64,000 bases of DNA from Thermoanaerobaculia bacterium (lineage in GTDB: Bacteria > Acidobacteriota > Thermoanaerobaculia > Multivoradales > JAGPDF01): contig JANNGS010000057.1 of the NCBI GenBank assembly GCA_031403995.1, forward strand, positions 12,173 through 76,172, in the 5' to 3' direction. Under the pieces are notes generated by a model, which ran no database searches, was not told the DNA's origin, and saw only the letters and a program-made list of their open reading frames with translations. Below are positions 1-57,042 of this stretch, in pieces. The position numbers and the translations under genes were made by a program. Position 1 is the first letter of the stretch; each line of letters opens with the position of its first letter.

Positions 1-254
1 GCCCGCGATCAGCGGCACCAACGCCCGAAACACTCCATGCCCTTGCTTCACCGGGTCCTTCTCTGCTTTCCTTCGCATCGTCGGCTCCTTTTCCCCGAAG
101 GGAACGGTTGCTTGACACAGTCATTCTCTGACTGGACAAGGGGCCGCCGCTACTTCACGTCAAATTCAACAGAGTTCGGGACATTGCCTGCCTCACCGGC
201 GTCTGTATCTTCCAAAACCCCGGCCGCAACGACCTGCTCGGGGAAGGAGACCGC

Positions 255-1100
255 TTGCTCTTGCAGCCAGCGCAGAGCGTCAGTGGCTTGAGCTGGGTAG
301 GGGAGAGCGGCGATTTCGTGCAAGTGTTCGAGGGCAGGTATGCGGTCGAAGAGACCTGGGGAATCTGGGGCGAGCTCTACGAATCAGACAGCTCGTTCGT
401 GAGTGGGCCGGTTCGTATCAGCGACCCCGCGGTCCGCGAGGCCCGTCACCCCGCAGTGTCTCGAGACGCGCAAGGCGAGTTTCTCGTGGTTTGGGAGGCC
501 GATGGAAATCAGGACGGCGTTCCCGAGATTCGTGGCCGCAGGCTGGATCGCAATGGCGTACCCGTTGGCCCCGAGTTCGCGGTGGGCCCGGGGGAAGCGG
601 GAGAGAGCCAACGTCCGAGCGTGGCGCTCGACGCCGGAGGCAACGCCATTGTCGCCTGGGAGAGCCTCGATGCGACCACGGGGCTCAAGCAGGTTTGGAT
701 TCAAAGGCTGGACCGTGCCAACCGACGCGATGGTGATCCGCAGAGGGTGGGCGAGCCGCAGGACGCTTGGCCCGGGCCGAGAGTCGCCGGCGATCCCGCC
801 GGAAACGCCCTGCTCGTGTGGATGGAGGCGGACGGGGCCGCTGGAAATCAGCTTGTCTCCTTGTTCATCGGAGAGTCGGGGCGATTGAGAAATCAAGTCG
901 TCGCTTCGAGCCTGGCGACCGAGTTTCTCGCGCTTTCAGCCGTCGTCGCGACGAAGGCCGGTCGTTTCCAGGTGGAGTGGGAAGCGCTCGACCAGGGAAG
1001 CCCGACGCGTCGAAGCGCGCGCGACTACTCCACGCAGGGAGTCGCGATCGGGGGCGAACGTGCCGCTCCTTCAACTCTTGCCGGCGGCCCGGCTCAATGA
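255..1100 (+). CDS. Repeat protein paralogous to the downstream gene. It has four copies of a 40-50 aa unit of the form G-x-(F/I)-x-V-x-W-E...DG...R-R-x-D-x-x-G. No signal peptide is visible. The start is uncertain: TTG at 255, and in-frame sequence stays open back to 132.
   Basis: The ORF shares the repeat motif GxxxVVWE/GNAIVAWE/GNALLVWME with ORF 1097..3079. Its stop TGA overlaps the ATG of the next gene (ATGA). Composition is protein-like. Confidence 0.5.
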   Translation: MLLQPAQSVSGLSWVGESGDFVQVFEGRYAVEETWGIWGELYESDSSFVSGPVRISDPAVREARHPAVSRDAQGEFLVVWEADGNQDGVPEIRGRRLDRNGVPVGPEFAVGPGEAGESQRPSVALDAGGNAIVAWESLDATTGLKQVWIQRLDRANRRDGDPQRVGEPQDAWPGPRVAGDPAGNALLVWMEADGAAGNQLVSLFIGESGRLRNQVVASSLATEFLALSAVVATKAGRFQVEWEALDQGSPTRRSARDYSTQGVAIGGERAAPSTLAGGPAQ

Positions 1101-10307: not shown

Positions 10308-10401
10308 GGACAGGCCAAGCGTATAGCGAGAGGAGTCGTTGAAACCCCATCGACGGGAGCTGGCTTCGCGCCGGCACGCGAGGGAGTAGACTCCCCGCCG
10401 C

Positions 10402-11070
10402 ATGGGCGGCCGACACCTGTTTCCGCGCTTGCGCTGGTTGGGGCTCGCCTGGCTGGTGGTCTACCTGCCGTCGTATGCGATCGCCTACGGTTTCACCAAC
10501 TTCCTCTTTCTCTGCAACCTCGGCGTGATGCTCACCGCGGCGGCGCTGCTGGGCGAGAGCCGCCTGGTGCTCTCGAGCCAGGCGGTGGCGGCGCCGGTGA
10601 TCGGCCTCGCCTGGGCAACCGATGCCGGCTGGCGGGTGGTGACCGGGGCGCACCTGTTCGGCGGCACCGAGTACATGTGGGATCCGCAGTACCCGCTGTT
10701 CACCCGGCTGCTCTCGCTCTACCACCTCGCCTGGCCGGTGATCGTCGTCGTGCTCGTGCGGCGGGTCGGTTACGACCGTCGCGGCTGGGCGCTCCAGGCC
10801 ACCATCGCCGCCGCCGCGCTGGTCGTCTGCCGCCTGTTCACGGCGCCGGCGGAGAACATCAACTTCGCCTTCGTCGATCCGGTCTTCGGCCGGGCGTTCA
10901 CGCCGCCGGCGCTGCACCTCGCGATCGTCTTCGTCGCCCTCGCGGGCGTCGCCTACGGCGCGACCCACCTCGCGCTGCTGCGGTTCGCGGCGCGCCGGAG
11001 CGACGGCGGAACCGCAACGGCTCCGGACGCCGCCAGCGACGCCCTCCTCGACCGGGCTACCGCAGGCTGA
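10402..11070 (+). CDS. Hypothetical polytopic membrane protein, divergent from the NRPS-like gene.
   Basis: It has at least five hydrophobic helices and protein-like composition. The opposite-strand ORF 10201..10968 is Arg/Asp-rich junk. Confidence 0.55.
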   Translation: MGGRHLFPRLRWLGLAWLVVYLPSYAIAYGFTNFLFLCNLGVMLTAAALLGESRLVLSSQAVAAPVIGLAWATDAGWRVVTGAHLFGGTEYMWDPQYPLFTRLLSLYHLAWPVIVVVLVRRVGYDRRGWALQATIAAAALVVCRLFTAPAENINFAFVDPVFGRAFTPPALHLAIVFVALAGVAYGATHLALLRFAARRSDGGTATAPDAASDALLDRATAG

Positions 11071-19977: not shown

Positions 19978-20073
19978 TTGATTCTAAGGCCTTTGATGAG
20001 CGCCGTGCAACATCGGATTGGAGCCCTCTGAAACGCCCGGCTCGGGCAGGGCGTGCTAGTGTCCAACCCCGTC

Positions 20074-22023
20074 ATGTCCAAACCCGAGTCGACGACGGGA
20101 GTCGACCTCAACCCCACCTCCCACGCTCCGATCATCCGCTCGAAGAAGGATCTGGCGCGCCTCAGCCTTGGTGCGCTGGGGGTCGTGTATGGCGACATCG
20201 GCACCTCGCCGCTCTACGCGATCAAGGAGTGCTTCGCACTGCCCCACGGTGTCGCGATCAACCTCGGCAACGTCCTCGGCATCCTCTCGCTCGTCTTCTG
20301 GGCGCTGACGCTCATCGTGGTCGTCAAGTACATCGGCTACGTGATGCGCGCCGACAACCACGGTGACGGCGGCATCCTCGCTCTCCTTGCGTTGGTCACC
20401 GAGCAGCGCAGCCACCCAAAGCGCGGCGAGTCCGGCCACCGGCGATGGATCACGCTCGTTGCGCTGGCGCTCTTTGGCGCGGCGCTGCTGTGGGCCGACG
20501 GGATGATCACGCCGGTCATCTCCGTCCTCGGCGCGCTCGAGGGGCTCGACGTCGCGACGCCGTTCTTCCGCCCGTGGATCGTGCCCATCGCCTTGGGGAT
20601 CCTCGTCGCCCTCTTTCTCGTGCAGCGACGGGGAACCGCCGGTATCGGCGCCGTTTTCGGCCCGCTCATGCTCGTCTGGTTCGCGTCGATCGCCGCTCTG
20701 GGAATCCCGGCGATCGTGCGTCATCCGGAGGTGCTGGCGGCGGTCAATCCGATGCACGCCTTTCACTTCTTCCGCGCCAACGGGTTGCACGGCTTCCTGA
20801 TTCTCGGCGCGGTCGTTCTCTGCGTCACCGGCAGCGAGGCTCTGTACGCCGATATGGGGCATTTCGGACGCCGCCCGATCCGCGTCGCCTGGTTCTGGCT
20901 GGTCTTCCCGGCGCTGCTCGCGAACTACTTCGGACAGGGAGCGCTGCTGCTCGCCCGCGGACAGGAGGTGGTCGCGAATCCGTTCTACGGCCTCGCGCCG
21001 GACTGGTTCCTCTATCCGCTGGTGGCGATCGCCACCGCGGCCGCGGTGATCGCCTCGCAGGCCCTCATCTCCGGCGCTTTCTCCCTCGCCCAGCAGGCCA
21101 TCCAGCTGGGCTTCTCGCCCCGCATGACGATCGTCCACACTTCGGGAGAGGCCAGCGGCCAGATCTACGTTCCGGAAGTGAATACGATCCTCATGGTCTC
21201 CTGCGTCGCCCTGACCCTGATGTTCCAGAAGTCCGGCAACCTGGCGGCGGCCTACGGCATCGCGGTGATGGGGACGATGGTGATCACCACGATCCTGCTC
21301 TTCTCCGTCGAGCTCCGGATATGGAAGTGGCCGCTCTGGCAGGCGCTCGCGCTGAGCGCGGCCTTCATGGTCATCGACATCCCTTTCCTCGCCGCCAACG
21401 TGGTCAAGATCGTGAGCGGCGGCTGGGTGCCGCTCGCCGTCGCCCTTGCGATCTATGTCCTGATGACGACCTGGAAGCGCGGCCGCCGAGCCGTCCGCAA
21501 GACCCTCGAGGCCGGCAGCTTGCCGATCGATCTCTTCCTCGCCGGGCTCTCGACCTACGAGCCCTTCAGGGTGAAAGGTACGGCGGTGTTCATGACATCG
21601 TCTATGAACGTCACGCCGCCCATCCTGCTGCACCATTTCAAGCACAACAAGGTGCTGCACGAGAAGGTCATCCTGTTCACCATCGTGACCGAGGGCATTC
21701 CGGAGGTCCCGAAACGGGACCGCATCGGGATGCGCGAGCTCGACCACGGGTTCGCCGAGGTCATAGCGCACTATGGCTTCATGCAGACCCCGAACGTGCC
21801 GCTGGCGTTGCGCCGGGCAGCGGAACTGGGTCTCCAGTTCGATGCCAATTCGGTGAGCTACTTCCTCGGCCGCGAGACGATTCTCACGACCGGCAAGTCG
21901 GCCATGGCCGGCTGGCGCAAGAGCCTGTTCGTCTACCTCGCCCGCAACGCGCGGCCCGCCAACGCCTTCTTCCGCATTCCCCCGAATCGCGTCATCGAGC
22001 TCGGCGCCCAGGTCGAGATCTAG
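20074..22023 (+). CDS. kup: KUP/HAK/KT potassium uptake transporter.
   Basis: The KUP signature GALGVVYGDIGTSPLYA is present, with 12 TM segments and the conserved C-terminal cytosolic domain. Confidence 0.9.
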   Translation: MSKPESTTGVDLNPTSHAPIIRSKKDLARLSLGALGVVYGDIGTSPLYAIKECFALPHGVAINLGNVLGILSLVFWALTLIVVVKYIGYVMRADNHGDGGILALLALVTEQRSHPKRGESGHRRWITLVALALFGAALLWADGMITPVISVLGALEGLDVATPFFRPWIVPIALGILVALFLVQRRGTAGIGAVFGPLMLVWFASIAALGIPAIVRHPEVLAAVNPMHAFHFFRANGLHGFLILGAVVLCVTGSEALYADMGHFGRRPIRVAWFWLVFPALLANYFGQGALLLARGQEVVANPFYGLAPDWFLYPLVAIATAAAVIASQALISGAFSLAQQAIQLGFSPRMTIVHTSGEASGQIYVPEVNTILMVSCVALTLMFQKSGNLAAAYGIAVMGTMVITTILLFSVELRIWKWPLWQALALSAAFMVIDIPFLAANVVKIVSGGWVPLAVALAIYVLMTTWKRGRRAVRKTLEAGSLPIDLFLAGLSTYEPFRVKGTAVFMTSSMNVTPPILLHHFKHNKVLHEKVILFTIVTEGIPEVPKRDRIGMRELDHGFAEVIAHYGFMQTPNVPLALRRAAELGLQFDANSVSYFLGRETILTTGKSAMAGWRKSLFVYLARNARPANAFFRIPPNRVIELGAQVEI

Positions 22024-22125
22024 TCGGCGCGCGATTTGTTGCGCGGCAAGTCACTGATTCTGCTGCAGTTGCCTGCCTGAACCCGGGCGGTGGCCGGGGC
22101 TCGCGTGCTACGCTCCCCACCCGCC

Positions 22126-24075
22126 ATGGCCAAGACAGACTCGTCGACCGGCGTCGACGTCCATCTGACCTCCCACGCACCGATCATCCGCTCGCCGAAG
22201 GACCTGGCGCGGTTGGGGTTGGGTGCATTGGGAGTGGTCTACGGCGACATCGGAACCTCGCCGCTCTATGCCATGAAGGAGTGCTTCAACTCCGCGCACG
22301 GTGTCGCGCCGCTGCTCGGCAATGTGCTGGGGGTCCTCTCGCTGGTCTTCTGGGCGCTCACGCTGATCATCTCCGTCAAGTACATCTCTTTCGTGCTGCG
22401 GGCCGACAACCATGGCGACGGCGGCATCCTCGCGCTCCTCGCTCTGGTTACCGAACAGCGCAGTCACCCCGGCAAAGGCGAGACGGGCAGGAAGCGCTGG
22501 ACAGTCCTGGTCAGTCTCGCTCTGGTCGGCACGTCGCTGCTCCTCGCCGAGGGCATGATCACCCCGGCCATCTCCGTCCTCTCCGCGCTCGAAGGGCTCG
22601 ACATGGCGACCCCGATCTTCCGCCCCTTTATCTTGCCGCTGGCGGTCGGAATTCTCCTCGCCCTGTTTCTCGTCCAGCGCAAGGGCACGGCCGGGATCGG
22701 TGCGGTCTTCGGCAAGGTGATGCTCGTCTGGTTCGCGGCGATCGCGGCCCTGGGACTCCCGGCCATCCTCCGCCATCCGGAGGTGCTGGGAGCGATCAAC
22801 CCGGCGCACGCCGTGCGCTTCTTCGCCGAGAACGGGCTGCACGGATTCCTCATCCTGGGGTCGGTCGTTCTCTGCGTCACGGGAGGAGAGGCGCTCTACG
22901 CGGACATGGGACATTTCGGGCGCGGCCCGATCCGCATCTCCTGGTTCTCGCTCGTCTTCCCGGCCCTTCTGATCAACTACTTCGGCCAGGGGAGCCTGCT
23001 GCTCGAGCGCGGCACGAGTGCGGTGGCGAATCCGTTCTTCGGTCTCGCACCCTCGATACTCCTCTATCCGCTGGTGATCCTGGCGACCGCCGCGGCGGTG
23101 ATCGCTTCCCAGGCGATGATCTCGGGCGCCTTCTCGCTCGCCCAGCAGGCGGTGCAACTGGGCTATCTTCCACGGCTCTCGATCATCCACACCTCGGGCG
23201 AGGCGAGCGGCCAGATCTACGTGCCGGAGATTAACCGGCTCCTGATGGTCGCCTGCATCGCGCTCACGCTCGGTTTCCGCGACTCCTCCAAGCTCGCCGG
23301 CGCCTATGGCATCTCGGTCATGGGCGCGATGATCTGCACCTCCGTCCTGCTCTCCGCGGTCGCCATCCGGCGCTGGAAGTGGTCCCCCGCGCTGGCCTTC
23401 GGGCTCGTGGCCCTATTCCTCGCGGTGGAAGTTCCGCTCCTCCTCGCCAACATCCCGAAGATCGTCCATGGCGGGTGGTTTCCACTCCTGGTGGGGTCGG
23501 TCTTCTTCTTCGCCATGACCACCTGGAACATCGGCCGGCGCGCAGTGCGGAGCTTTCTCGAGCTCGGAAGCCTGCCGATCGACCCCTTTCTGGCCCGTCT
23601 CGAGTCGTACAACGCGCACCGGGTGAAAGGAACGGCGGTTTTCATGACCTCGGCGATGGGGGTGACGCCGCCGATCCTGCTGCACCACTTCAAGCACAAC
23701 AAGGTGCTGCACGAGAAGGTCATCCTGTTCACGATCGTGACCGAGGGTATCCCGGAGGTCCCGAAGCGGGACCGGATCCAGATGCGCGAGCTGGCACATG
23801 GCTTCAGCGAGGTCATCGCGCACTACGGTTTCATGCAGACGCCGAACGTGCCGCTCGCCCTGCGCCGCGCGGCGGAGCAGGGGCTCGAGTTCGACCCCGG
23901 GACGGTGAGCTACTTCCTCGGCCGCGAGACCATTCTCACCACCGGCAAGTCGCGGATGTCCGGCATGCGCAAGAGCCTGTTCGTCTACCTCGCCCGCAAC
24001 GCGCGGCCTGCCAACGCCTTCTTCCGCATTCCTCCGAACCGCGTCATCGAGCTCGGCGCGCAGGTCGAGCTTTAG
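22126..24075 (+). CDS. kup: Second KUP potassium transporter, a tandem paralogue of the preceding gene.
   Basis: It is about 80% identical at the protein level to the 20074..22023 product and carries the same GDIGTSPLYA signature. Confidence 0.9.
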   Translation: MAKTDSSTGVDVHLTSHAPIIRSPKDLARLGLGALGVVYGDIGTSPLYAMKECFNSAHGVAPLLGNVLGVLSLVFWALTLIISVKYISFVLRADNHGDGGILALLALVTEQRSHPGKGETGRKRWTVLVSLALVGTSLLLAEGMITPAISVLSALEGLDMATPIFRPFILPLAVGILLALFLVQRKGTAGIGAVFGKVMLVWFAAIAALGLPAILRHPEVLGAINPAHAVRFFAENGLHGFLILGSVVLCVTGGEALYADMGHFGRGPIRISWFSLVFPALLINYFGQGSLLLERGTSAVANPFFGLAPSILLYPLVILATAAAVIASQAMISGAFSLAQQAVQLGYLPRLSIIHTSGEASGQIYVPEINRLLMVACIALTLGFRDSSKLAGAYGISVMGAMICTSVLLSAVAIRRWKWSPALAFGLVALFLAVEVPLLLANIPKIVHGGWFPLLVGSVFFFAMTTWNIGRRAVRSFLELGSLPIDPFLARLESYNAHRVKGTAVFMTSAMGVTPPILLHHFKHNKVLHEKVILFTIVTEGIPEVPKRDRIQMRELAHGFSEVIAHYGFMQTPNVPLALRRAAEQGLEFDPGTVSYFLGRETILTTGKSRMSGMRKSLFVYLARNARPANAFFRIPPNRVIELGAQVEL

Positions 24076-46889: not shown

Positions 46890-48188
46890 ATGCCCCGTCG
46901 CCTGCCGTTGCACACCCGGATGCTGATCGGTTTCGCGATCGGCATCGTCGCCGGGCTTGTCGCGCACCGCTACTTCGCGGGCGATCCGCGGCTGGTCTGG
47001 TTCCTCTCCCATGTCTCTCAGCCGGTGGGGAAGGTCTTCCTCCGCCTGCTCTTCATGCTGGTCGTGCCGCTCATCTTTTCGGCCCTGGTGCTCGGGATCA
47101 CCGGCCTCGGCGACCTGAAGAGCCTCGGGCGGATCGGCCTGAAGACTCTCGCCTACACAGTCGTGGTGTCGTCGATCGCGGTCCTTCTCGGGCTTGTGCT
47201 GGTGAACGTCCTCAAACCCGGCGAGGGGCTCTCCGAAGAAACCCGGGCGCGCATGATGGCCGGCGCCGCTGAGCGCTCCGCGGTGCTCGCCAAGGCGCAG
47301 GCGCCGAAATCGGGGATGGACCTGGTGACCGAGATCGTGCCGGCGAATCCGCTCAAGGCGGCGGCCGACGGCGACCTCCTGGCCTGGATGTTCTTCGCCC
47401 TGCTCTTCGGCATCGGTCTCTCGCTCACCCGCACCGAGGCCGCGCGGCGCCTCGAGGAGATGATCGAAGGGCTCTACAACGTCACCATGCGGCTCATCGC
47501 CATCGTCATCGGGCTCGCTCCGATCGGGGTGGCGGCGCTGCTGTTCTCGATCACCGCCGATCTCGGCCTCGAGATCGTGGTCCAGCTGGCGCGCTACGTC
47601 GGCGTCGTGGTGCTGGCGCTCGCCATCCACCAGTTCGTCGTCTACTCGGCGGTGGTCAAGCTCTTCGGCGGCATGAGCCCGCGCTTCTTCTTCAGCAGCA
47701 TCCAGGAGGCGATGATCACGGCTTTCTCGACCGCCTCTTCGAACGCCACCCTGCCGACGGCGTTGCGCGTCGCCGAGGAGAAGCTGAAGCTCCCGTCGCA
47801 CGTCAGCCGCTTCGTCCTCACCCTCGGCTCGACCGCCAACCAGAACGGCACCGCGCTTTTCGAAGGCGTCACGGTGCTCTTCCTGGCGCAGTTCTACGGC
47901 ATCGAGCTCGCGCTCTCGCAACAGGTTCTGGTGCTGTTCATCTGCATTCTCGGCGGCATCGGGACGGCGGGCGTCCCGGCGGGTTCGATCCCGGTGGTGG
48001 CGATGATCCTCGGGCAGGTCAACGTGCCGATCGAGGGGATCGGCATCATCCTCGGCGTCGACCGCTTCCTCGACATGTGCCGCACCACCCTGAACGTCTC
48101 GGGCGACCTCGCCGCGGCGGTCGTCGTGTCGCGCGGCGAGGCCCACCCCGCGCCGCCGCTGGTACCGCCAGCGCCGCTGGGCGCGTAG
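46890..48188 (+). CDS. Dicarboxylate/amino-acid:cation symporter (DAACS; GltP/DctA family).
   Basis: The family motifs LGITGLGDLKSLGRIGLKTL, FFSSIQEAMITAFSTASSNATLP and IPVVAMILGQVNVPIEGIGIILGVDRFLDM are present. The track ORF starts at 46671 in the same frame. Confidence 0.85.
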   Translation: MPRRLPLHTRMLIGFAIGIVAGLVAHRYFAGDPRLVWFLSHVSQPVGKVFLRLLFMLVVPLIFSALVLGITGLGDLKSLGRIGLKTLAYTVVVSSIAVLLGLVLVNVLKPGEGLSEETRARMMAGAAERSAVLAKAQAPKSGMDLVTEIVPANPLKAAADGDLLAWMFFALLFGIGLSLTRTEAARRLEEMIEGLYNVTMRLIAIVIGLAPIGVAALLFSITADLGLEIVVQLARYVGVVVLALAIHQFVVYSAVVKLFGGMSPRFFFSSIQEAMITAFSTASSNATLPTALRVAEEKLKLPSHVSRFVLTLGSTANQNGTALFEGVTVLFLAQFYGIELALSQQVLVLFICILGGIGTAGVPAGSIPVVAMILGQVNVPIEGIGIILGVDRFLDMCRTTLNVSGDLAAAVVVSRGEAHPAPPLVPPAPLGA

Positions 48189-48277
48189 TTCGGCCGGTTC
48201 CGGGATTCTCCGCGAATGGCACCGCCGCGCGCTGCGGCCGCGTTCGGAGTATGCTGCGGCGCGTTCGCTGACAGTAC

Positions 48278-51200
48278 TTGGGGGAAGCCATTTTGACAGG
48301 TTCTGCCTGCCTCAAACAATGCTCTCTATGGTTGGGCCGGGTGGCGCTTTTCCTGTTGGCTGTAGCGGCAGGGGCAGATCAGCTCTGGTTGGTGTCGCGG
48401 GGCCTGCCCAGCGACACGCCGGCGGGATGGTCGCAGCCGCACACGATGACTCCGGACGGACGCTACGTCCTCATGAGCTCGGCGGCCACGGGTTGGGTGA
48501 GCGGCATCGTGGACTCGAACGGCGGCCCGGACGTCTACCTGTGGGACCGGGATACGGGCGAGCACACCCTCGTCTCGCACACCGTCGGGGATCCGGCGAC
48601 GGCGGCGAACGACGAGTCGTTTCCCGGTTCGATCAGCGACGACGGCCGATTCGTGACCTTCAGCTCCTACGGTTCGGACCTGGTCGACGGCGCAACCGAC
48701 ATCAACTTCGTCGCCGACGTCTTTCTCTGGGACGGCGCCACCGGCTCGATCCAGCTCGTCTCGCACATGGGGGTCGCCGTAGCGATGACCGCGAACGAGC
48801 GCTCGACGCCGAACGCCATGAGCGCCGACGGCCGCTACGTCGTCTTCCAGTCCGTGGCCGACGATCTCGTCGCTGGCGGAGTCGACGACAACCAGACCTG
48901 GGACGTTTTCGTCTGGGACCGCGACACCTCCGAGGTGGTCCTGGTCTCGCACGATGCGGTCGATCCGGCGAGCGCGGCAGATGGACTGTCCGAGCCTGCC
49001 GCGATGAGCACCGACGGGCGCTACATCGCCTTCACTTCGTCGGCGACCAATCTGGTCGCCGGGACCACCGATGCCAATGCCGTCGAGGACGCCTTCGTCT
49101 GGGATCGGGTCGCGGGCGCTTCGACCCTGGTCTCGCACGCGGCGCCCTCGGCGACGACGGCGGCGAACAACTTCTCCGTCGCCCGGGCCATCAGTGCCGA
49201 CGGCCGCTATGTCGCTTACGACTCCAACGCCACCAACCTGATCACCGGCTGGTCGGGCTCGGCCGCCAACGTCTTTCTCTGGGATCGCGACACCGGCGGA
49301 GCGACCCTGGTCTCCCATCGCGCGACCGGTCTCGCCGCGGGAGCCGGCGGCTCCGAGCTCGGCGCGCTCAGTCCGGACGGCCAGAGCGTCGCCTTCGTGT
49401 CGAAGGCGGAAACGCTCATCGCCGGCGGCAGCGACGCCAATGCGGAGGACGACACCTTTCACTGGCGGGCCGACAGCGGCGCGGTGGCGCTGGTTTCCCA
49501 CACGGCTTCGTCGACGACCACGGCGGGAGATCGCGCGGCGCTGCCGGTGGCGATCAGCGCCGACGGTCAGTTCGTGCTCTATCGCTCGGCGTCGAGCGAT
49601 CACATCGCCGGGGGGAGCGACGCGAACGGCGTCGAAGACGCCTTTTTCTGGGACCGCGACAGCGGCGCGATCGAGCTCGTCTCGCGAACTCCTGCCAGCG
49701 CGACGACTCCGGGCGGCGCGGCTTCGACGCCGCGCGCGATGAGCGCCGACGGGCTGTGGGTCGCCCTCGCCTCCAAAGCCAGCGACCTGCTCTCGGGAGG
49801 CGTGGACGGCAACGGTGCCCAGGACGCCTTTCTCTGGGACCGCACGAGCGGCGCCCACAGTTTGATCTCAAGCGCCACTGTGGCGGAGGTAACCGGCGCG
49901 AACGGCCTGGTCAGCCCGCTGGCGCTGAGCTCCGATGGGCGGTTCGTCCTGTTCAGCTCGGAGGCGACCAATCTGCTGGCCGGTGGGACCGCAACCAGCG
50001 ACCTCTGGGACCTTCTGCAGTGGGATCGCACGACCGAAGCCTTGACCCTGGTCGCCCACGTCGCCGGCGAGCGGCCGACCGCGACGAACGAGGCCGGCAG
50101 CATGAGCTCCGACGGCCGCTACGTGGCGTTCTACTCCTTCGCCGCCGACCTGATCGCCGGCGGCAGCGATGCCAACGGCGAGGCCGACGCTTTTCTCTGG
50201 GATCAGACGAGCGGGCTGCGGATCCTCATTTCCGGCGCAGCCGGTTCGGGCACGGTGGCGGCGAACGGGCGCTCGATCCCGGCGGCGATGAGCCTGGACG
50301 GCCGCTACGTGACGTTCTGGTCGCTCTCCACCGACCTCGACGCGGGCCTAACCGACCTCAACGATGCCAGGGACGTCTTCCAATGGGATCGTGACACCGG
50401 CGTCGTGACCCTGATCTCGCACGTCGGCGGACAACCGCAGGTCGCGGCGGACTCCGAATCCGTTCCTACGGCGACGAGCGCCGACGGCCGTTACGTCGCT
50501 TTCTACTCGCAGGCGATGAGCCTGGTCGACGTCGCCAACGATCTCAACGGCACCGTCGAGGACGCCTTCCTTTGGGACCGCATCACCGGTGCGGTCACCC
50601 TCGTCTCGCACATTCCCGGGGCCCCGACGACCACCGGAAACGGCAAGTCGATACCTCTCGGGGTGAGCGCCGACGGCGAGTTCGTCGCCTTTGCCTCCAA
50701 ATCGAGCGACCTGATCGTCGGCAACGACGACGGGAACGGGCAGTTCGACCTTTTCCTCTGGGCGCGATCGAGCGGCGCGGTGACCCTCATCTCGCACTCC
50801 ACCATCGCGTCGACGAGCACCGGCGACGAGTTCAGTGCCTTCAAGGCGCTTTCCGCCGACGGCAATTTCGTCGCCTTCGTGTCGGCGGCGACCGACCTGA
50901 TCGTCGGGGGCATCGACTCCAACGGGCCGGGCGCCGACGCTTATCTGTGGAGTCGCCTGACTGGGGAGGTGCAACTGATCGCGCACGCCCCTGGCGATCC
51001 GGCGGCGACGGCGAACGGTGCCTCCGAGCCCGTGTCGTTGAGCGCCGATGGCCGCTATGTCGTGTTCTCGTCTTCCGCTTCCGACCTGGTCGCGGGTGCG
51101 CTCGACACCAACGAGCTCGCCGACGTCTACCTCTGGGATCGGTTGAGCGACAGCTCGATCCTGGCGTCGCACACGCTGGATGACGCGACCGTTTCGGCGT

Positions 51201-52984
51201 TCGGTCCCTCGACGGCGCGGGCGATGAGCGCGAACGGGAGCTACGTCCTGTTCTCTTCCGCCGCCCGGGACCTCGCGCCGGCAAACACCTCTGCGATCCA
51301 GGTCTACCTCTGGTCGGCCAACACCCTGGACGCGACTCCTCCGCTCAATCCGGCGATTGACTCGACGCTGCCACCGGTGTCGATCTGGTCGAACAGCCCT
51401 TGGGTCGAGATCAGCTGGTCGGGGGCGAGCGACGAGCTCGGCGGCTCGGGGATGCACGGCTATTCGACGCTCTGGGACACCTCAGCGGACACGGTTCCGG
51501 ACGCGGTCGTCGATGAACCGCACGCCACGGACCCCAATTCGGTGACCAGCCCGCCGCTCACCGACGGCGACTCGCACTACTTCCATCTCTCGACTTGCGA
51601 CTCGGCCGGCAACTGCGCTGCGACCGTGCATGCCGGACCGTTCTGGGTGGACACCACGCCGCCCGCTGCAGCCACCGCGCTGGCGAGCTCCAGTCATGCG
51701 GTGGGCGTGCCGTCGAACGACCCGACCGTCGACGTCCAATGGCAGGCGGCGCTCGACCAGGCCGGACTCTCCGGCATCGACGGTTACGCGGTGGAGTTCG
51801 AGGCGAACAGCGGCTGGACCTGTGACGAGGTGCTGGACCTCGAGGAGGGCACACTCTCGACGACGAGCCCGGTGCTCGCCGACGGCGAGTGGTACTTCCA
51901 CCTCTGCGCGCGCGACAACGCCGGCAACTGGGGGCCGGTGGCGTCGCTCGGGCCGTTCGTGATCGAGACCCTGCCGCCGGGCGCGGCCTCCGGGCTCGCG
52001 AGCTCGAGTCACGCGGTGGGCGTGCTGTCGAACGACCCGACCGTCGACGTCTCCTGGCAGGCGGCTCCCGACCTCGAGGTTCCCTCCGGCATCGATGGCT
52101 ACGCGATCCAGTTCGATGGGAACAGCAGTTGGACCTGCGATGAGGTCAAGGACGTCGAGGAGGACACGCTCGCGGCGACGAGCCCGGCGCTCGCCGACGG
52201 CGACAGGTACTTCCACCTCTGCGCGCGCGACAACGCCGGCAACTGGGGGCCGGTGGCGTCGCTCGGGCCGTTCGTGATCGACGCCTCACCGCCGGGCGCG
52301 GCCTCCGCACTCGCGAGCTCGAGTCACTCAGTGGGCGTGCCGTCGAACGACCCGACGGTCGACGTCTCCTGGCAGGCGGCTCCCGACCAGGCGGGTCCCT
52401 CCGGCATCGACGGCTACGCGCTTCAGTTCGATGCGAACAGCAGCTGGACCTGTGACGAGGTGCTGGACGTCGAGGAGGGCACACTCGCAACGACGAGCCC
52501 GGTGCTCGCCGACGGCGACGGGTACTTCCACCTCTGCGCGCGCGACAACGCCGGCAACTGGGGGCCGGTGGCGTCGCTCGGCCCGTTCTTGATCGACGCC
52601 TCCCCGCCGGGCGCGGCCTCCGGGCTCGCGAGCTCGAGCCACGTGGTGGGCGTGCCGTCGAACGACCCGACGGTCGACGTTCAATGGCAGGCGGCTCCCG
52701 ACCAGGCGGAGTCCTCCGGCATCGACGGCTACGCGCTGCAGTTCGATGCGAACAGCGGCTGGGCCTGCGACGAAGTGCAGGACGTCGAGGAGGTCACGCT
52801 CGCGGCGACGAGCCCGGCGCTCGCCGACGGCGACTGGTATTTCCACCTCTGCGCGCGCGACAACGCCGGCAACTGGGGACCGGTAGCGTCGATCGGGCCG
52901 TTCGTGATCGAAATCTCCGCGACCGTTTTCATCGACGGGTTCGAGCTCGGCGATATGTCGCGATGGTCCAGCAATGTGCCTTGA
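48278..52984 (+). CDS. Giant secreted protein (about 1570 aa). It has a signal peptide, about 19 tandem PD40/TolB-like beta-propeller repeats (...SxDGRYVaF.S.A.dLvaG.tD.N...DVFLWDR.TG...LVSH), one diverged and four near-identical roughly 105-aa Fn3/Ig-like modules, and a terminal DGFELGDMSRWSSNVP motif.
   Basis: The repeat architecture was read directly from the translation. The start is approximate; TTG at 48278 or 48293 gives ...CLKQCSLWLGRVALFLLAVAAGADQ. Confidence 0.8.
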   Translation: MGEAILTGSACLKQCSLWLGRVALFLLAVAAGADQLWLVSRGLPSDTPAGWSQPHTMTPDGRYVLMSSAATGWVSGIVDSNGGPDVYLWDRDTGEHTLVSHTVGDPATAANDESFPGSISDDGRFVTFSSYGSDLVDGATDINFVADVFLWDGATGSIQLVSHMGVAVAMTANERSTPNAMSADGRYVVFQSVADDLVAGGVDDNQTWDVFVWDRDTSEVVLVSHDAVDPASAADGLSEPAAMSTDGRYIAFTSSATNLVAGTTDANAVEDAFVWDRVAGASTLVSHAAPSATTAANNFSVARAISADGRYVAYDSNATNLITGWSGSAANVFLWDRDTGGATLVSHRATGLAAGAGGSELGALSPDGQSVAFVSKAETLIAGGSDANAEDDTFHWRADSGAVALVSHTASSTTTAGDRAALPVAISADGQFVLYRSASSDHIAGGSDANGVEDAFFWDRDSGAIELVSRTPASATTPGGAASTPRAMSADGLWVALASKASDLLSGGVDGNGAQDAFLWDRTSGAHSLISSATVAEVTGANGLVSPLALSSDGRFVLFSSEATNLLAGGTATSDLWDLLQWDRTTEALTLVAHVAGERPTATNEAGSMSSDGRYVAFYSFAADLIAGGSDANGEADAFLWDQTSGLRILISGAAGSGTVAANGRSIPAAMSLDGRYVTFWSLSTDLDAGLTDLNDARDVFQWDRDTGVVTLISHVGGQPQVAADSESVPTATSADGRYVAFYSQAMSLVDVANDLNGTVEDAFLWDRITGAVTLVSHIPGAPTTTGNGKSIPLGVSADGEFVAFASKSSDLIVGNDDGNGQFDLFLWARSSGAVTLISHSTIASTSTGDEFSAFKALSADGNFVAFVSAATDLIVGGIDSNGPGADAYLWSRLTGEVQLIAHAPGDPAATANGASEPVSLSADGRYVVFSSSASDLVAGALDTNELADVYLWDRLSDSSILASHTLDDATVSAFGPSTARAMSANGSYVLFSSAARDLAPANTSAIQVYLWSANTLDATPPLNPAIDSTLPPVSIWSNSPWVEISWSGASDELGGSGMHGYSTLWDTSADTVPDAVVDEPHATDPNSVTSPPLTDGDSHYFHLSTCDSAGNCAATVHAGPFWVDTTPPAAATALASSSHAVGVPSNDPTVDVQWQAALDQAGLSGIDGYAVEFEANSGWTCDEVLDLEEGTLSTTSPVLADGEWYFHLCARDNAGNWGPVASLGPFVIETLPPGAASGLASSSHAVGVLSNDPTVDVSWQAAPDLEVPSGIDGYAIQFDGNSSWTCDEVKDVEEDTLAATSPALADGDRYFHLCARDNAGNWGPVASLGPFVIDASPPGAASALASSSHSVGVPSNDPTVDVSWQAAPDQAGPSGIDGYALQFDANSSWTCDEVLDVEEGTLATTSPVLADGDGYFHLCARDNAGNWGPVASLGPFLIDASPPGAASGLASSSHVVGVPSNDPTVDVQWQAAPDQAESSGIDGYALQFDANSGWACDEVQDVEEVTLAATSPALADGDWYFHLCARDNAGNWGPVASIGPFVIEISATVFIDGFELGDMSRWSSNVP
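51653..52915 (+). repeat. Four tandem, nearly identical 315-bp DNA repeats (units starting near 51653, 51969, 52284 and 52593) that encode the Fn3/Ig-like modules, plus one older diverged copy near 51340-51652.
   Basis: Long identical strings recur every 315 bp, for example gacaacgccggcaactgggggccggtggcgtcgctcgggccgttcgtgatcga and tcgaacgacccgac.gtcgacgtc. They produce a stack of phantom overlapping ORFs in the track (51595..52490). Confidence 0.85.
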
Positions 52985-53027
52985 GAGCCTGGGCGGCAGA
53001 GCTTTCGCAAACGACAAGGAGTCTCCG

Positions 53028-53915
53028 ATGGCATCGAAGCGCAGGACGGGTGCAAGGGTCGGGCTGCTCTTGCTGGCAGGCGCGTTGACGTCGTCTGCCT
53101 GGCTGATGGCGGGTGAGAGCGGAGAGCGCGAGACCCTGGCCTCTGCCCGCGTCTCCCGCTGCACGCCGGTCGAGGTCCGGGCGGTCCACGGCGGCGAGCT
53201 GCCGGCCAACGCGCGGCTGGCGCGAATCGAGAACGGCAAGGTGCCGTGCATGCACGTCGAGGAGATGACGATCGCCAGCTGTGAGTTTTCGACCTCGAGC
53301 GAGGCGTTGAGCGGCAAGTGGCTCGAGGGCCCGGAAGGGCAGTTCGCGCTCGTCGGTCAGGCGGTGTCGCGCGACGGCAAGCCGGGCGGGGATTGGATCG
53401 TCGCCGCGCGGGTCGAAGGTGGAGAGTCCGCGTATTGCAGCGAGCCGACCGGTATGGACACCGCCGGGCGTGTCTCACCGGGCGTCGAGCTCGCCAACAT
53501 CTGCGTCATCGAAGATGTTCTCCAGCAATGGAACGCAATGTCGATCTACGGCTCGGGGACGTTGGTGAACGTTGCGACGATGGAGGTCTGCAGCCTCAAC
53601 AACCCCGCGACGCGGCCCCACCCGGACGGCGCAGAGCTCGTCCGCAGCTACTCGTCCAACGGCGGTGACGTCGACGACATCTTCTGCTACACCGGCTGGG
53701 GCGCCGGGCTCAACGACATCAACGGTACCGAGCGCGACGAAACCACCAACTATCTGACTGGCGAACGGTACTGCCACTGGATCGTCAGCTCTGGATTCGA
53801 GGTTCCGGGAGCCAAGCGCCCGGCCACCAAGAGCCTGCCGGCGCCGGGCATCGTCAACGTCAAATCCCTCGTCGTCTGGCGGCCGGTGAATCCCAACGTC
53901 AATATCGCCAACTGA
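53028..53915 (+). CDS. Secreted Cys-containing hypothetical protein (about 295 aa). Its local composition looks less GC-rich than the neighbouring genes.
   Basis: It has the signal peptide MASKRRTGARVGLLLLAGALTSSAWLMA and eight Cys residues. The track ORF starts at 52974 in the same frame. Confidence 0.55.
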   Translation: MASKRRTGARVGLLLLAGALTSSAWLMAGESGERETLASARVSRCTPVEVRAVHGGELPANARLARIENGKVPCMHVEEMTIASCEFSTSSEALSGKWLEGPEGQFALVGQAVSRDGKPGGDWIVAARVEGGESAYCSEPTGMDTAGRVSPGVELANICVIEDVLQQWNAMSIYGSGTLVNVATMEVCSLNNPATRPHPDGAELVRSYSSNGGDVDDIFCYTGWGAGLNDINGTERDETTNYLTGERYCHWIVSSGFEVPGAKRPATKSLPAPGIVNVKSLVVWRPVNPNVNIAN

Positions 53916-53924
53916 AGGTCGAAA

Positions 53925-55094
53925 GTGAACGTGGAGCTCTTCTCGATGGTAGCCCTCCTTCTGGGGTGTCTGCCGTGGGCAGAAGCGGCCTCGCCGCCGA
54001 CTCCGGTCGCGCCGGCGAGGGCGACGGGGGCGGCGCTCCTTGCCAGCCGTTTGCCGCGGGTGGAGTATCGCGGCGGGCTGTTCCTCAGGAAGATCCGCGT
54101 CGTTACCATCACCTTCGCTGGCGACGATCCGGCGCTCGTGGCGCGGCTCGAGCGCTTCGGCGACACGATCGTCCGCTCGCCCTGGTGGCGGGACTCGGTC
54201 GAGGGGTATTGCGCGACCGCGGGCGACTGCATCGGCGCGGGCCGCCCGGGGCTTGCGGTCCGCCTGGACGAGCAGCTGCCCTCGCGGGTCCATGGCGTCG
54301 ACATCTCGGCCCTCCTGCGCCGCGAAGCGCGCGCCGGACGCTTCGGGGCGTACGATCCGGAGAGCGTCTACGTCGTCTATCTGCCCGCCGGAGTCACCCT
54401 GTTCGACGCCTACCAGGAGCATTACTGCGCCGGCGGGCCGCGCGCCTTTCACCGCGCGCTGCGCGACGGCGAGCGGTTGAACGGCTTCTCGGTCATCCCG
54501 CGCTGCGGCGACGAGAGCGAGCTCACCGGGACCGCGAGCCACGAGCTCGTCGAGCTCGCGACCAACCCCGACACACAACAGCGGGGCTTCGCCTTCGAGC
54601 AGAGCTCGAACCAGCTGGCTTTCCTCGCCGCGGGCGTCGAGCCGATGGATCCCTGTGGACTCCTCACCCGGGATAGCCACCGCCTGCAGGAGAGCGGTTT
54701 CACGGTGCAGGGGGCGTGGTCCAACCGCGCCGCCGCGCTGGGACAGGATCCGTGCGCGCCGCTTCCCGCGCCCCAGGCCTATGTGGCGGGCATCCCGCGC
54801 GCGCCTTCGCTGCGGCTGCGACAGGTCGGCGACCGCGCCACCGTCGTCCTGGACGCGACCGCGGACCGCCCGGGCGTCGAATGGCAGCTGTCGGTCGTCG
54901 ACCTGAGCGGCGAGCAGGAGGGCGTGCGCTATGTGGAAGCGGCGCTCGAGAAGTCGACGGTGACCGCCGGCGAGTCCGTCACGCTCACGCTCGAGCTGCG
55001 CCGGCGCCACCCGCAGGAGACGGTCGTCGTGGCCATACTTTCGACCCTCGGCGACCAGACCCGGATGTGGCCGCTGGCGGTGAACACGCGCTGA
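53925..55094 (+). CDS. Secreted hypothetical protein (389 aa) with several Cys pairs and an HELVELATNPD motif.
   Basis: It has the signal peptide MNVELFSMVALLLGCLPWAEA and protein-like composition. The opposite-strand ORF 53475..55265 is junk. Confidence 0.55.
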   Translation: MNVELFSMVALLLGCLPWAEAASPPTPVAPARATGAALLASRLPRVEYRGGLFLRKIRVVTITFAGDDPALVARLERFGDTIVRSPWWRDSVEGYCATAGDCIGAGRPGLAVRLDEQLPSRVHGVDISALLRREARAGRFGAYDPESVYVVYLPAGVTLFDAYQEHYCAGGPRAFHRALRDGERLNGFSVIPRCGDESELTGTASHELVELATNPDTQQRGFAFEQSSNQLAFLAAGVEPMDPCGLLTRDSHRLQESGFTVQGAWSNRAAALGQDPCAPLPAPQAYVAGIPRAPSLRLRQVGDRATVVLDATADRPGVEWQLSVVDLSGEQEGVRYVEAALEKSTVTAGESVTLTLELRRRHPQETVVVAILSTLGDQTRMWPLAVNTR

Positions 55095-55239
55095 AATCGG
55101 CCTTCTGCGCCGAGAGCGCTCGAGGGATTCGGCATGATCCTCGGAGTCGCCTCCGTCCGACCGGTTCCAGAAGGGGCCGGAAGTGTCACCGCCGCGCGAC
55201 TGACTTCGAAACCACCCCTCGCGTAGCCTCCAGACCGGG

Positions 55240-57042
55240 ATGTCGATCCGGCTGGAACAGCTCACGAAGCGCTACGACGGCCGCGCAGTCGTCTCCAACG
55301 TCTCCTTCGAAGTCGCCACAGGCGAGCTCTGCGTGCTCCTCGGCCCATCGGGGAGCGGCAAGAGCACGATCCTGCGGCTCGTCGCCGGTCTCGCTCCCTG
55401 TGACGGCGGGCGGATCCTGCTCGACGGGCAGGACCTCGCCCCGGTGCCGGCGCGCGAGCGCGGGCTCGGCTTCGTATTCCAGAGTTACGCCCTCTTTCGC
55501 CACCTGACGGTCTCGGAGAACGTCGAGTTCGCGCTGCGGGTGCGCGGCGACTCTGCGCCGTCGCGTCGGCAGCGCCGCGAGGAGCTCCTGGAGCTCGTCG
55601 GCCTTGCCGGGCTGGGGCAGCGTTTTCCGGCACAGCTCTCGGGCGGCCAGCAGCAGCGCGTCGCCCTGGCGCGGGCGCTGGCGCATCGCCCGCGGGTGCT
55701 GCTGCTCGACGAACCCTTCGGGGCCCTCGATGCCCGCATCCGGCTGGAGCTGCGCCGCTCGCTGTCGCGGATCCAGCGCGAGCTCGCGGTGACGACGCTC
55801 TTCGTCACCCACGACCAGGAGGAGGCCTTCGAGCTCGCCGATCGACTGGCGGTGATGTCCCAGGGCCGGCTCATCGAGGACGGTCCGCCGCGCGAGCTCT
55901 ACCTGCGCCCGCAGACCGAGTTCGCGGCGACTTTCCTCGGCGGCGCCAACCTCCTGGTCGGCAGGAGCGACGAGCACGGCATCCGTTTCGGTGCCGTCGA
56001 AGTGCCGCTCAAGGGGGGGATCGCGGCGGAGGGGCTGGAGCGGCGTGTCCAGCTCCTCGTGCGCCCAGAAGACGTCGAGCTCGTGGCCCCCGGCGAAGAG
56101 CTCGCTTCGACACCGCTCGGCGAAGGTCTGGTCGAAGAAGTAGCGTTCGTTGGCGCGCAAGAGCGCCTGCGCCTGAAGCTCCCGACGCCTCCCGGAGTGC
56201 GGGTGATCCATCCGCCGCGCCGTTTCGGAGATCCCGACCTGCCGGTCGAGGCGGTGCGCTCGCAGCATGACGCTCGCCGGCTCACACTCCTTCCCGGGGA
56301 TCGCGTTCGGGTCGGCATCCGTCGTTTTCACGTTCTGCTGCATCCCGGACTCTCGTTGCTCCTCGCCGAGAGCGCCGGTCCGGCGGGGGAGGCGGCGCTG
56401 CACGCTGCAACGGAGATTGCGCGGCTCGCGCAGGCGCGCTTGCAGCGCAGCAGCCTCGAAGCGACCTTCGCTGGCCGCGGCTCGGACGAGGGCGTCGAGC
56501 ATCCCGACCTGCTGGTGGTGGGGGCGCGCGCCGGAGCGGTTGCGGCTTCCTCGGAGAAGCTGCTCGCGGCGACCTCGGCGAACCTCTTGCTGGTGCGCGG
56601 CGCGACGCCGATGCCGCCCACCCGCTTCCTGATCGCGGTCGCGGTCGGCGAGCCGGGCAAGGAGGACGTCGCTTTCGCCGGCCGTCTGGCGCGCCACCTG
56701 GGCGCTTCGGCGACGGTCCTCTCGGTCCTCGCTCCGGATGCCGCAGAGAGCGAGCAGCGCGCCGCAGAGCGCTTTCTCGCCGCTTGCGTGCGCACGCTCG
56801 CGGCGCTCGGCGTGCCGGCAGAGATCGATGTGAGGCGCGGCGAGCTCCGTGCTGTCCTCGGCGGGCGAATCGACGAGGCGCGCGACCTTCTCGTTCTGGG
56901 CGCGCCGCCTCCAGACGACGAAGGTCGCTACTCCTGGGGGCGGACGCTGCGCGGTCTGCTCGATGCAGGTGGGTCGGTGCCCATTCTCGTCGTGCGCGCG
57001 GCGCGCGGCCAGGGCCTCGAGCCGGCGGGGGACGTGGAATGA
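55240..57042 (+). CDS. cysA: Sulfate/thiosulfate ABC importer ATPase CysA fused to a TOBE-like domain and two tandem universal-stress-protein (UspA) domains.
   Basis: The ABC domain has [24 protein letters not shown] and [11 protein letters not shown]. The C-terminal 250 aa show USP-like beta-alpha units ([10 protein letters not shown]...[10 protein letters not shown]...LLLVRG, and [12 protein letters not shown]...DLLVLGAPP...VPILVVRA). Confidence 0.75.

What the first reader, a model, noticed from the sequence alone, without database searches (positions are those of the whole stretch)
53028..55094. Two Cys-rich secreted hypothetical proteins directly downstream of the giant protein, in a patch of apparently lower GC
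Both have clean signal peptides, several conserved-looking Cys pairs, and no recognisable family. The second contains HELVELATNPD, a possible HExxE-type metal site. The gaps are 43 bp to the giant gene's stop and about 10 bp between the two, which suggests co-transcription.

Codon usage in 53000-53900 looks noticeably less G/C-biased than in surrounding genes, which hints at horizontal acquisition. They could be partners, chaperones or substrates of the giant surface protein.
Basis: partly seen in the sequence, partly recalled or inferred. Interest (0 to 1): 0.5.

Follow-up and report, generated by a model that had tools for sequence, protein, structure and literature searches.

The report
Conserved secreted pair with odd metalloprotease
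Two adjacent genes encode an exported protein whose predicted fold matches no solved structure and a metalloprotease-like partner with an unusual metal-binding motif. The pair travels together in soil bacteria of three phyla, its function has never been tested, and it is not a foreign low-GC island.

Summary
The two genes are real. Gene A is 53028-53915 (295 aa). Gene B is 53925/53946-55094 (389/382 aa). Neither matches Pfam, NCBIfam, PADLOC, PHROGs or any PDB sequence.

The low-GC / horizontal-transfer idea fails. Gene A has 66% GC only because of its first codon positions. Its GC3 (0.861) and codon adaptation are average for the window, and gene B is above average.

An A-type gene lies upstream of B on the same strand in nearly every locus with enough DNA, across Acidobacteriota, Myxococcota and Actinomycetota. 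Elsewhere the A domain is fused to the C-terminus of giant PD40/Kelch/cadherin surface proteins, with B still next door.

Best reading: a dedicated extracytoplasmic module in which the HExxE metallohydrolase B acts on A-domain proteins. That mechanism is inferred, not shown.

The parts
48278..52984 (+). Giant exported protein (1568 aa). It has about 16 PD40-type repeats, then four ~105-aa Ig-like repeats starting at 51686, 52001, 52316 and 52631. It is a neighbour of the module, not part of the conserved A-B unit.
   Evidence: ORF list and translation. Pfam PD40 E = 1.6e-11, Big_13 and Big_3_4. Repeat coordinates. Its homologue is adjacent but divergent in L009, L010 and L023.
52985..53027 (+). 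43-bp intergenic spacer with the ribosome-binding site AAGGAG at 53017-53022. It holds no terminator-like or promoter-like site.
   Evidence: Sequence; consensus scan.
53028..53915 (+). Gene A: a 295-aa exported protein and founding example of the 'A domain'.
   Evidence: Translation. 64 homologues, none with a Pfam domain. 184 clusters among 1.84 billion representatives. AF2 model pLDDT 84.8, pTM 0.80. No PDB fold match.
53028..53108 (+). Signal peptide of A (about residues 1-27: MASKRRTGARVGLLLLAGALTSSAWLMA).
   Evidence: Read directly from the sequence. pLDDT is below 50 for residues 1-36. The cleavage site is inferred.
53148..53912 (+). A domain proper (residues ~41-295): mostly beta, with four co-varying Cys pairs. 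The C-terminal half (~140-295) is the most conserved part.
   Evidence: Alignment A1; model; Cys covariation. Partial-length matches to only residues 142-295 in L037 and L038.
53712..53738 (+). Invariant acidic loop N229-D-I-N-G-T-E-R-D237. It is a possible Ca2+/metal-binding loop, which is inference only.
   Evidence: N229, D230, G233 and E235 are invariant; N232, R236 and D237 are at least 90% conserved.
53877..53912 (+). Conserved C-terminal tail W-R-P-V-N-P-N-V-N-I-A-N.
   Evidence: The tail motif occurs in 133 of 200 family members. In 81 of those 133 the protein ends within 3 residues of the motif.
53925..55094 (+). Gene B: 389 aa from GTG 53925, or 382 aa from ATG 53946. An exported zincin-like protein with a C-terminal Ig-like domain.
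54030..54770 (+). Zincin-like alpha/beta domain of B (residues ~36-282). It carries three invariant Cys pairs (C96/C102, C168/C194, C244/C277) and invariant H176, E239 and D242.
54540..54572 (+). H206-E-L-V-E210-L-A-T-N-P-D216: the HExxE(x5)D motif at the end of the predicted active-site helix (helix 197-213).
   Evidence: HExxE in 118/118 sequences where the motif was located. Asp at position +10 in 101/118. Helix boundaries.
54777..55091 (+). C-terminal Ig-like beta-sandwich domain of B (residues ~285-389).

Best explanation
Genes A and B form a conserved extracytoplasmic two-gene module.

A is an exported, disulfide-stabilised, mostly-beta domain whose predicted fold has no analogue among solved structures. 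It occurs in three forms: a free secreted protein, a lipoprotein, or the C-terminal module of giant surface proteins built from PD40 or Kelch propellers and cadherin/Ig repeats.

B is an exported metallohydrolase-like protein. It has a zincin (metzincin-like) catalytic fold plus an Ig-like domain. The canonical HExxH is replaced by an invariant HExxE, usually followed by Asp at position +10.

The most likely mechanism is that B is the dedicated partner enzyme of A-domain proteins. It would process, trim or release them outside the cytoplasm, with one B serving one to three A paralogues. In this genome the free-standing A protein probably works with the neighbouring PD40 giant, as the split equivalent of the fused proteins seen elsewhere.

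Shown here: gene structure, export features, folds, invariant motifs, the synteny and the domain fusions.

Inferred: metal binding, catalysis, that A is B's substrate, and any contact with the giant protein.
For: SYNTENY
- An A-type gene lies upstream of B on the same strand in every locus reached through B that has enough upstream DNA. These are L001/L015 (Actinophytocola), L003 (three A paralogues), L009, L010 (two A paralogues), L012, L013, L014, L004/L005, and L006/L007 (A broken).
- Among loci reached through A, 13 of about 18 with more than 1.2 kb downstream have B.
- Start/stop spacing is tight. There are 4-bp overlaps in L003, L004 and L022 and a 4-bp gap in L001.

FUSIONS
- When A is fused to giant proteins, B still follows. 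P0193 is followed by a 434-aa protein 49% identical to B (E = 4e-135). P0196 is followed by B. P0243 is followed by a 380-aa protein with no Pfam domain.
- The fusion partners are PD40, Calx-beta, Big_9, cadherin-like, Kelch, DUF5122 and NHL domains.
- The PD40 array of P0247 is homologous to the window's giant protein (E = 3e-33).

PROTEIN B
- pLDDT 92.5.
- The predicted helix 197-213 ends just before N-P-D216. In metzincins the chain turns at that point to bring in the third ligand (established knowledge of the HExxHxxGxxH/D motif).
- HExxE in 118/118 located motifs. H176, E239, D242 and six Cys are invariant.

PROTEOLYTIC THEME
- In Myxococcota the cassette is expanded to A, a trypsin-like protease, a 247-aa protein, a 541-aa protein, then B (L004, L013, L053).
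Against: - No activity, metal content or interaction has been measured.
- The defining zincin motif HExxH is absent. A one-His, two-carboxylate site would be unusual for a zinc peptidase and could mean another metal, another chemistry or a pseudo-enzyme.
- 9 of 118 homologues have Phe instead of Asp at position +10.
- A carries its own cluster of invariant polar residues (E162, H198, D200, N229, D230, E235, H250, E258, K263, R264). It may therefore be an enzyme or binding module in its own right rather than a mere substrate.
- At least one giant protein with a C-terminal A domain has no B within 10 kb (L026).
- Giant-A adjacency is seen only in the Thermoanaerobaculia-type clade, and there the orientation differs from the window.
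Confidence: 0.45

Rival explanations
1. B is not a protease. It is a non-catalytic partner, either a chaperone/assembly factor or a pseudo-enzyme scaffold, that binds A-domain proteins. The degenerate zincin cleft and the Ig-like domain would hold or present A during export or surface assembly.
Against: H206, E207 and E210, plus H176, E239 and D242, are invariant at 45-66% overall identity across three phyla. That pattern is typical of a working active or metal site. Ig-like similarity is generic. PapD chaperones use two Ig domains.
Confidence: 0.2
2. A is a regulator of B: an inhibitor, or a pro-domain supplied in trans, that keeps the secreted hydrolase B inactive until release. This would resemble secreted protease/inhibitor pairs.
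For: Fixed gene order A then B with translational-coupling-like spacing. A's conserved, extended C-terminal tail could occupy a protease cleft.
Against: A is large and varies in architecture. It is present in 2-3 paralogues per single B. It is fused to the ends of 1000-2000-aa surface proteins. None of this is expected for a dedicated inhibitor.
Confidence: 0.1
3. A is a toxin or effector 'warhead' delivered on giant proteins, as in polymorphic toxins, and B is its exported immunity or neutralising protein.
For: The A domain sits at the extreme C-terminus of very large repeat proteins, with the partner gene immediately downstream.
Against: In polymorphic toxin systems the C-terminal domain varies while the N-terminal part stays constant. 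Here the A domain is the constant part and the N-terminal partners vary. B is 380 aa with enzyme-like invariant residues. Several A paralogues share one B. PADLOC gives no hit.
Confidence: 0.07
4. The two genes are a recently acquired foreign island and are functionally unrelated to their neighbours.
For: The 1-kb bin 53001-54000 has GC 0.659 against a window mean of about 0.69. The family has a patchy distribution across three phyla at about 50% identity.
Against: GC3 and codon adaptation of both genes are average or above average. 17.6% of equal-sized windows are as GC-poor as gene A. There is no mobile-element gene, tRNA-type boundary or plasmid relative. The closest relatives are Thermoanaerobaculia contigs that keep the same neighbouring giant gene.
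Confidence: 0.05

Closest known systems
Archaemetzincins / zincin metallopeptidases (MEROPS clan MA, family M54; PDB 3lmc, 2x7m, 3zvs)
   Different: The second zinc-binding His is an invariant Glu (HExxE). Position +7 is Thr, not Gly. The Met at 241 is not conserved, being Val in most sequences. There is no sequence-level match to any peptidase in Pfam, NCBIfam or the PDB. B also has three invariant disulfides and an added Ig-like domain.
Dedicated protease / giant-adhesin pairs such as LapG-LapA (from my own knowledge, as an analogy only)
   Same: An exported protease-like protein is genetically tied to very large repeat-rich surface proteins, and one conserved terminal module of the giant protein is the presumed recognition unit.
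   Different: LapG is a Ca-dependent cysteine protease that acts on an N-terminal retention module and is controlled by LapD. None of these components or motifs is present here. No cleavage has been shown.
HExxE iron-binding motif of the periplasmic domain of Salmonella PmrB (as cited in PMC4358008)
   Same: The same short motif in an extracytoplasmic protein. It shows that His plus two carboxylates on one helix can bind a hard metal ion such as Fe(III).
   Different: PmrB is a sensor-kinase loop, not a zincin fold. The resemblance is limited to five residues. Other 'HEXXE' mentions in the protease literature refer to HEXXH proteases: the CLCA1 text names His156/His160/Asp167 as the zinc ligands, and the M35 case is judged from my own knowledge of deuterolysins.
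Ig-like / PapD-like and S-layer (SbsC, Sap) beta-sandwich domains
   Different: This is a generic fold resemblance at 9-13% identity. It is no evidence of chaperone or S-layer function.
C-terminal sorting or anchor domains of giant surface proteins (PEP-CTERM, T9SS CTD, LPXTG, 'choice-of-anchor' domains)
   Same: The A domain is usually the last module of the polypeptide (81 of 133 tails end the protein) and comes with a dedicated neighbouring gene.
   Different: A is about 250 aa, not a short tag. It also occurs free, as a lipoprotein, in tandem and internally. It gives no NCBIfam or Pfam hit.

Membership tests
Zincin / metzincin metallopeptidases (clan MA) | HExxH zinc-binding and catalytic motif on the active-site helix | tested here: not met
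   The motif is HExxE in 118 of 118 homologues where it could be located. None has HExxH.
Zincin / metzincin metallopeptidases (clan MA) | Zincin catalytic fold (mixed beta-sheet, backing helix, active-site helix) | tested here: met
Metzincins | Extended motif HExxHxxGxxH/D, with Gly at +7 and the third ligand at +10 | tested here: inconclusive
   Asp at +10 in 101/118; Phe in 9, and Glu or Asn in 8. Position +7 is Thr in 100/118 and never Gly.
Metzincins | Conserved Met-turn beneath the metal site | tested here: inconclusive
   The only nearby Met (M241, in EPMDPCG) is Val in most homologues.
Any curated peptidase family (Pfam, NCBIfam) | Scores above the family HMM threshold | tested here: not met
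   No peptidase family at E ≤ 1 for B or for any of 34 homologues. The profile search against PDB sequences gave only a chance hit at E = 0.66.
Metal-dependent hydrolase (functional class) | Bound metal ion and catalytic activity | not testable with these tools
   Needs protein chemistry (ICP-MS, activity assays, mutants).
Polymorphic toxin / immunity pair | Variable C-terminal toxin on a conserved N-terminal body, with a small cognate immunity gene downstream | tested here: not met
   The A domain is the conserved part and the N-terminal architectures vary. B is 350-430 aa, uniform, with invariant enzyme-like residues. Up to three A paralogues share one B.
Known C-terminal protein-sorting domains (PEP-CTERM, T9SS CTD, LPXTG, etc.) | Match to the curated sorting-signal models; short C-terminal tag | tested here: not met
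   No NCBIfam or Pfam hit. The domain is about 250 aa and is also internal, in tandem or free-standing.
PD40 beta-propeller repeat proteins (the neighbouring giant protein) | PD40 repeat HMM match | tested here: met
   PF07676 E = 1.6e-11, 44.3 bits against a cut-off of 20.9. Internal repeats seen by tblastn self-hits.
Horizontally acquired island | Deviant GC3 or codon usage relative to the host; mobility genes or tRNA boundary | tested here: not met
   GC3 z = +0.24 for A and +1.0 for B. Codon-adaptation z = +0.24 and +1.04. The neighbours are a two-component system, an SDF transporter and an ABC transporter. No plasmid relatives.

The most novel reading that the evidence does not exclude
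The A domain and B together define a previously unrecognised maturation or sorting system for giant surface proteins of soil Acidobacteriota, Myxococcota and Actinomycetota. A ~250-aa C-terminal module of a new fold would be recognised and cut or released by a non-canonical HExxE metalloprotease, possibly using iron or another hard metal instead of zinc. The window would show the 'split' state, in which the module is a separate secreted protein next to its PD40 giant.
Probability: 0.2. Interest if true: 0.7.

Novelty: new variant of a known kind. Interest (0 to 1): 0.5.

Why it matters
Giant repeat-rich surface proteins are abundant in soil Acidobacteriota and Myxococcota, and how they are matured, anchored or shed is largely unknown.

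This locus gives a concrete, testable handle on that question. It offers a small, conserved two-gene module, about 184 A clusters at 50% identity and about 159 B clusters at 90% identity, that is genetically welded to such giant proteins.

It also offers two structural novelties:
- a confidently predicted domain with no analogue among solved structures;
- a zincin-fold protein in which the textbook HExxH is universally HExxE, which bears on how far the zincin metal site can be remodelled.

If B proves inactive, the family would instead be a clean example of a conserved pseudo-protease partner.

Tried and rejected
- Pfam, NCBIfam, PADLOC and PHROGs scans of A and B, plus Pfam scans of 37 A and 34 B homologues, gave nothing meaningful.
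- Profile searches of both families against PDB sequences gave nothing for A and a chance hit at E = 0.66 for B.
- The AFDB50 fold library was not available, so predicted-structure relatives of A were not examined.
- A profile search with the B alignment found only the same tight family and no distant, annotated relatives.
- tblastn of A and B against plasmids gave no match.
- An Rfam scan of 47500-56000 gave no RNA family.
- The large antisense ORF 53475-55265 (-) was dismissed as a high-GC shadow ORF, because the GC3 pattern fits the + strand genes.
- A literature search for an established 'HExxE' protease family found only HEXXH proteases written as HEXXE, plus the PmrB iron-binding motif.
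- One lookup (P0073) was not on record.
- A-B read-through was considered, since the two genes share a reading frame and are separated by one TGA. I rejected it as general biology because the frames and spacings differ in other loci.
Full report
**What is there**

On the + strand a 1568-aa giant gene (48278-52984) is followed after 43 bp by gene A (53028-53915, 295 aa). AAGGAG sits at 53017-53022. Gene B follows after 9 bp if it starts at GTG 53925, or after 30 bp if it starts at ATG 53946. B ends at 55094. A public gene call uses the ATG.

No terminator-like hairpin and no sigma-70-like promoter separate the three genes, so co-transcription in this genome is plausible. Upstream lie a response regulator, a histidine kinase and an SDF transporter. 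Downstream lies an ABC transporter operon. No Rfam family is present in 47500-56000. The long antisense ORF 53475-55265 is a typical high-GC shadow ORF.

**Composition**

The window averages 69% GC. Gene A has 66.4-66.6% GC. That is 1.2 sd below the mean of 34 window genes, and 17.6% of equal-sized windows are as low or lower.

The deficit lies entirely in first codon positions (GC1 0.614, z = -1.8), which reflects amino-acid composition. GC3 is 0.861 (z = +0.24, rank 20 of 34) and a leave-one-out codon-adaptation index has z = +0.24. Gene B is above average on all measures. There are no plasmid relatives and no mobility genes nearby.

**Protein B**

Neither B nor any of 34 homologues hits Pfam or NCBIfam. 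A profile search against PDB sequences finds nothing real.

The family is compact. It has 134-159 clusters, all 350-430 aa and 45-66% identical, all labelled hypothetical.

The alignment shows these invariant residues: W87, W88, C96, C102, C168, R173, H176, C194, T201, A204, S205, H206, E207, E210, E239, D242, C244 and C277. Among the 120 listed homologues the motif could be located in 118, and all 118 read HExxE; none reads HExxH. Asp is at position +10 in 101 of them.

The peptidase alignments are longer than the Ig domain. I therefore assign them to the N-terminal alpha/beta domain; that assignment is an inference.

The predicted helix 197-213 carries H206-E207-x-x-E210 and ends just before N-P-D216. 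This is where metzincins turn to supply their third ligand in HExxHxxGxxH/D (established knowledge of the family). B is thus zincin-like in fold and motif register but fails the defining HExxH test.

'HEXXE' in the protease literature refers to HEXXH proteases. The CLCA1 text itself lists His156, His160 and Asp167 as zinc ligands; the M35 case I judge from my own knowledge of that family. The one real HExxE metal site I found cited is the Fe(III)-binding motif of periplasmic PmrB. That leaves open a metal other than zinc.

B's N-terminus is a short hydrophobic segment with an AxA site and no positive n-region, so 'clean signal peptide' is an overstatement. Six invariant Cys and the ordinary signal or lipoprotein N-termini of homologues argue for export.

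**Protein A**

A has a canonical signal peptide. It has eight Cys whose presence or absence across 37 homologues pairs them as 188-220, 74-85, 159-249 and 45-137, with 0-2 discordant sequences.

Conservation is concentrated in the C-terminal half:
- E162, H198-P-D200, and the loop N229-D-I-N-G-T-E-R-D237;
- H250, E258, and A262-K-R-P265;
- the tail W-R-P-V-N-P-N-V-x-I-A-N.

An exhaustive profile search of 1.84 billion representatives finds only 184 clusters. Many of these are multi-domain. The A domain closes giants of 900-2000 aa built from Big_9/cadherin-like repeats, Kelch or DUF5122 propellers, PD40 repeats, Calx-beta, PKD or NHL domains. The tail motif occurs in 133 of 200 family members, and in 81 of those 133 the protein ends within 3 residues of the motif. 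Other members are lipoproteins, tandem A-A proteins, or carry unknown C-terminal extensions of about 30 or about 180 aa.

**Synteny**

Contigs found through B carry an A-type gene upstream on the same strand whenever enough DNA is present:
- Actinophytocola (L001/L015): 4-bp gap.
- L003: three A paralogues, then B with a 4-bp overlap.
- Thermoanaerobaculia L009 and L010: L010 has two A paralogues.
- Myxococcota L014 and Kofleriaceae L012.
- L006 and L007: A is frameshifted.
- A five-gene Myxococcota form: A, a trypsin-like protease, a 247-aa protein, a 541-aa protein, then B. It occurs in L004/L005, L013 and L053.

Among contigs found through A, 13 of about 18 with more than 1.2 kb downstream show B. 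B also follows A when A is fused to a giant protein. This holds for L020 (49% identity to B, E = 4e-135) and L022, and probably for the P0243 contig. One giant with a C-terminal A domain (L026) has no B within 10 kb. The conserved unit is therefore A-B, with rare exceptions.

**Relation to the PD40 giant**

A homologue of the giant protein (53% identity) is the direct neighbour of A-B in three Thermoanaerobaculia-type contigs. In all three it lies on the opposite strand, divergent from A (L009, L010, L023). It is absent from the actinobacterial and myxobacterial loci.

The fusion proteins P0243, P0244 and P0247 join PD40 repeats, Calx-beta, Big_9 and the A domain in one chain. The P0247 PD40 array aligns to the window giant at 32-35% identity (E = 3e-33). 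This is Rosetta-stone-type support for a functional link between A and such giants. It is not support for an obligatory operon.

**Interpretation**

Shown: an exported, disulfide-bonded, novel-fold A domain; an exported zincin-fold B with an invariant HExxE; strong A-to-B gene linkage across three phyla; and fusion of A to giant surface proteins.

Inferred (confidence about 0.45): B is a dedicated metallohydrolase that processes, trims or releases A-domain proteins outside the cytoplasm, and the window shows a split arrangement in which free A cooperates with the PD40 giant. The extra trypsin-like protease in the myxobacterial cassette fits a proteolytic theme.

The rivals are these:
- B as a non-catalytic chaperone or pseudo-enzyme (0.2).
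- A as an inhibitor or trans pro-domain of B (0.1).
- A toxin-immunity pair (0.07).
- A recently acquired island (0.05, largely refuted).

**Verdict**

The pair is not ordinary in the sense of belonging to known families. It is a small, uncharacterised, cross-phylum module with one fold that has no solved analogue and one non-canonical zincin. I rate it 'new variant of a known kind' with interest 0.5. The function remains untested, and conserved hypothetical pairs are common in metagenomes.

Noticed in passing
window 53913-53927: Genes A and B are in the same reading frame, separated only by the TGA stop of A and 9 nt before GTG 53925. Stop-codon read-through would give an A-B fusion. This is probably coincidence, because frames and spacings differ in other loci.
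   Followed up: partly
window 51686-52984: The giant protein ends with four near-identical ~105-aa repeats (SSSHxVGVxSNDPTVDV...YFHLCARDNAGNWGP) that hit Big_13 and Big_3_4 only weakly. The C-terminal motif is FIDGFELGDMSRWSSNVP. Neither element was identified.
   Followed up: no
L004 3211-9236; L013 5464-11164; L053 10001-16093: Myxococcota-type loci carry an expanded cassette: A (lipoprotein form), a trypsin-like serine protease, a 247-aa protein, a 541-aa protein, then B. It is followed by a TPR/PEGA gene, a Ser/Thr kinase and a sigma-54 activator. The 247-aa and 541-aa proteins have no Pfam family.
   Followed up: partly
L003 12519-15242; L007 9638-12845; P0243 contig: Ser/Thr kinases fused to PD40/Tricorn propellers, often with an ECF sigma factor, lie within a few kb of the A-B module in several acidobacterial-type contigs. 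This may be chance, since such kinases are abundant there, or it may be a regulatory link.
   Followed up: no
P0038, P0042, P0047, P0059 etc.: One A subfamily, with lipoprotein N-termini, carries a ~30-aa acidic Pro-rich C-terminal extension that ends in a conserved ...VPM. Another subfamily carries an unknown ~180-aa C-terminal domain (...FDxKxxFLxATG...). In extended proteins the residue after the ...I-A-N tail is mostly Asp (20) or Gly (14).
   Followed up: partly
P0185, P0187: Proteins with two A domains in tandem. The second begins right after the ...VAN-GG junction.
   Followed up: no
window 1-3000: The lowest-GC stretch of the window (0.607-0.638) is here, not at the flagged locus. It is a stronger compositional outlier than gene A.
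   Followed up: no
window 6009-10460 (-): A 1483-aa NRPS-like protein: formyltransferase, adenylation domain, carrier protein and thioesterase.
   Followed up: no
window 20032-24075 (+): Two tandem paralogous Kup-type K+ transporter genes (663 and 664 aa).
   Followed up: no
L006 7192-7717; L007 6714-7462; L053 13286-16093: A or B genes appear frameshifted or fragmented in several long-read, low-coverage metagenome contigs. These are probably assembly errors rather than pseudogenes.
   Followed up: no
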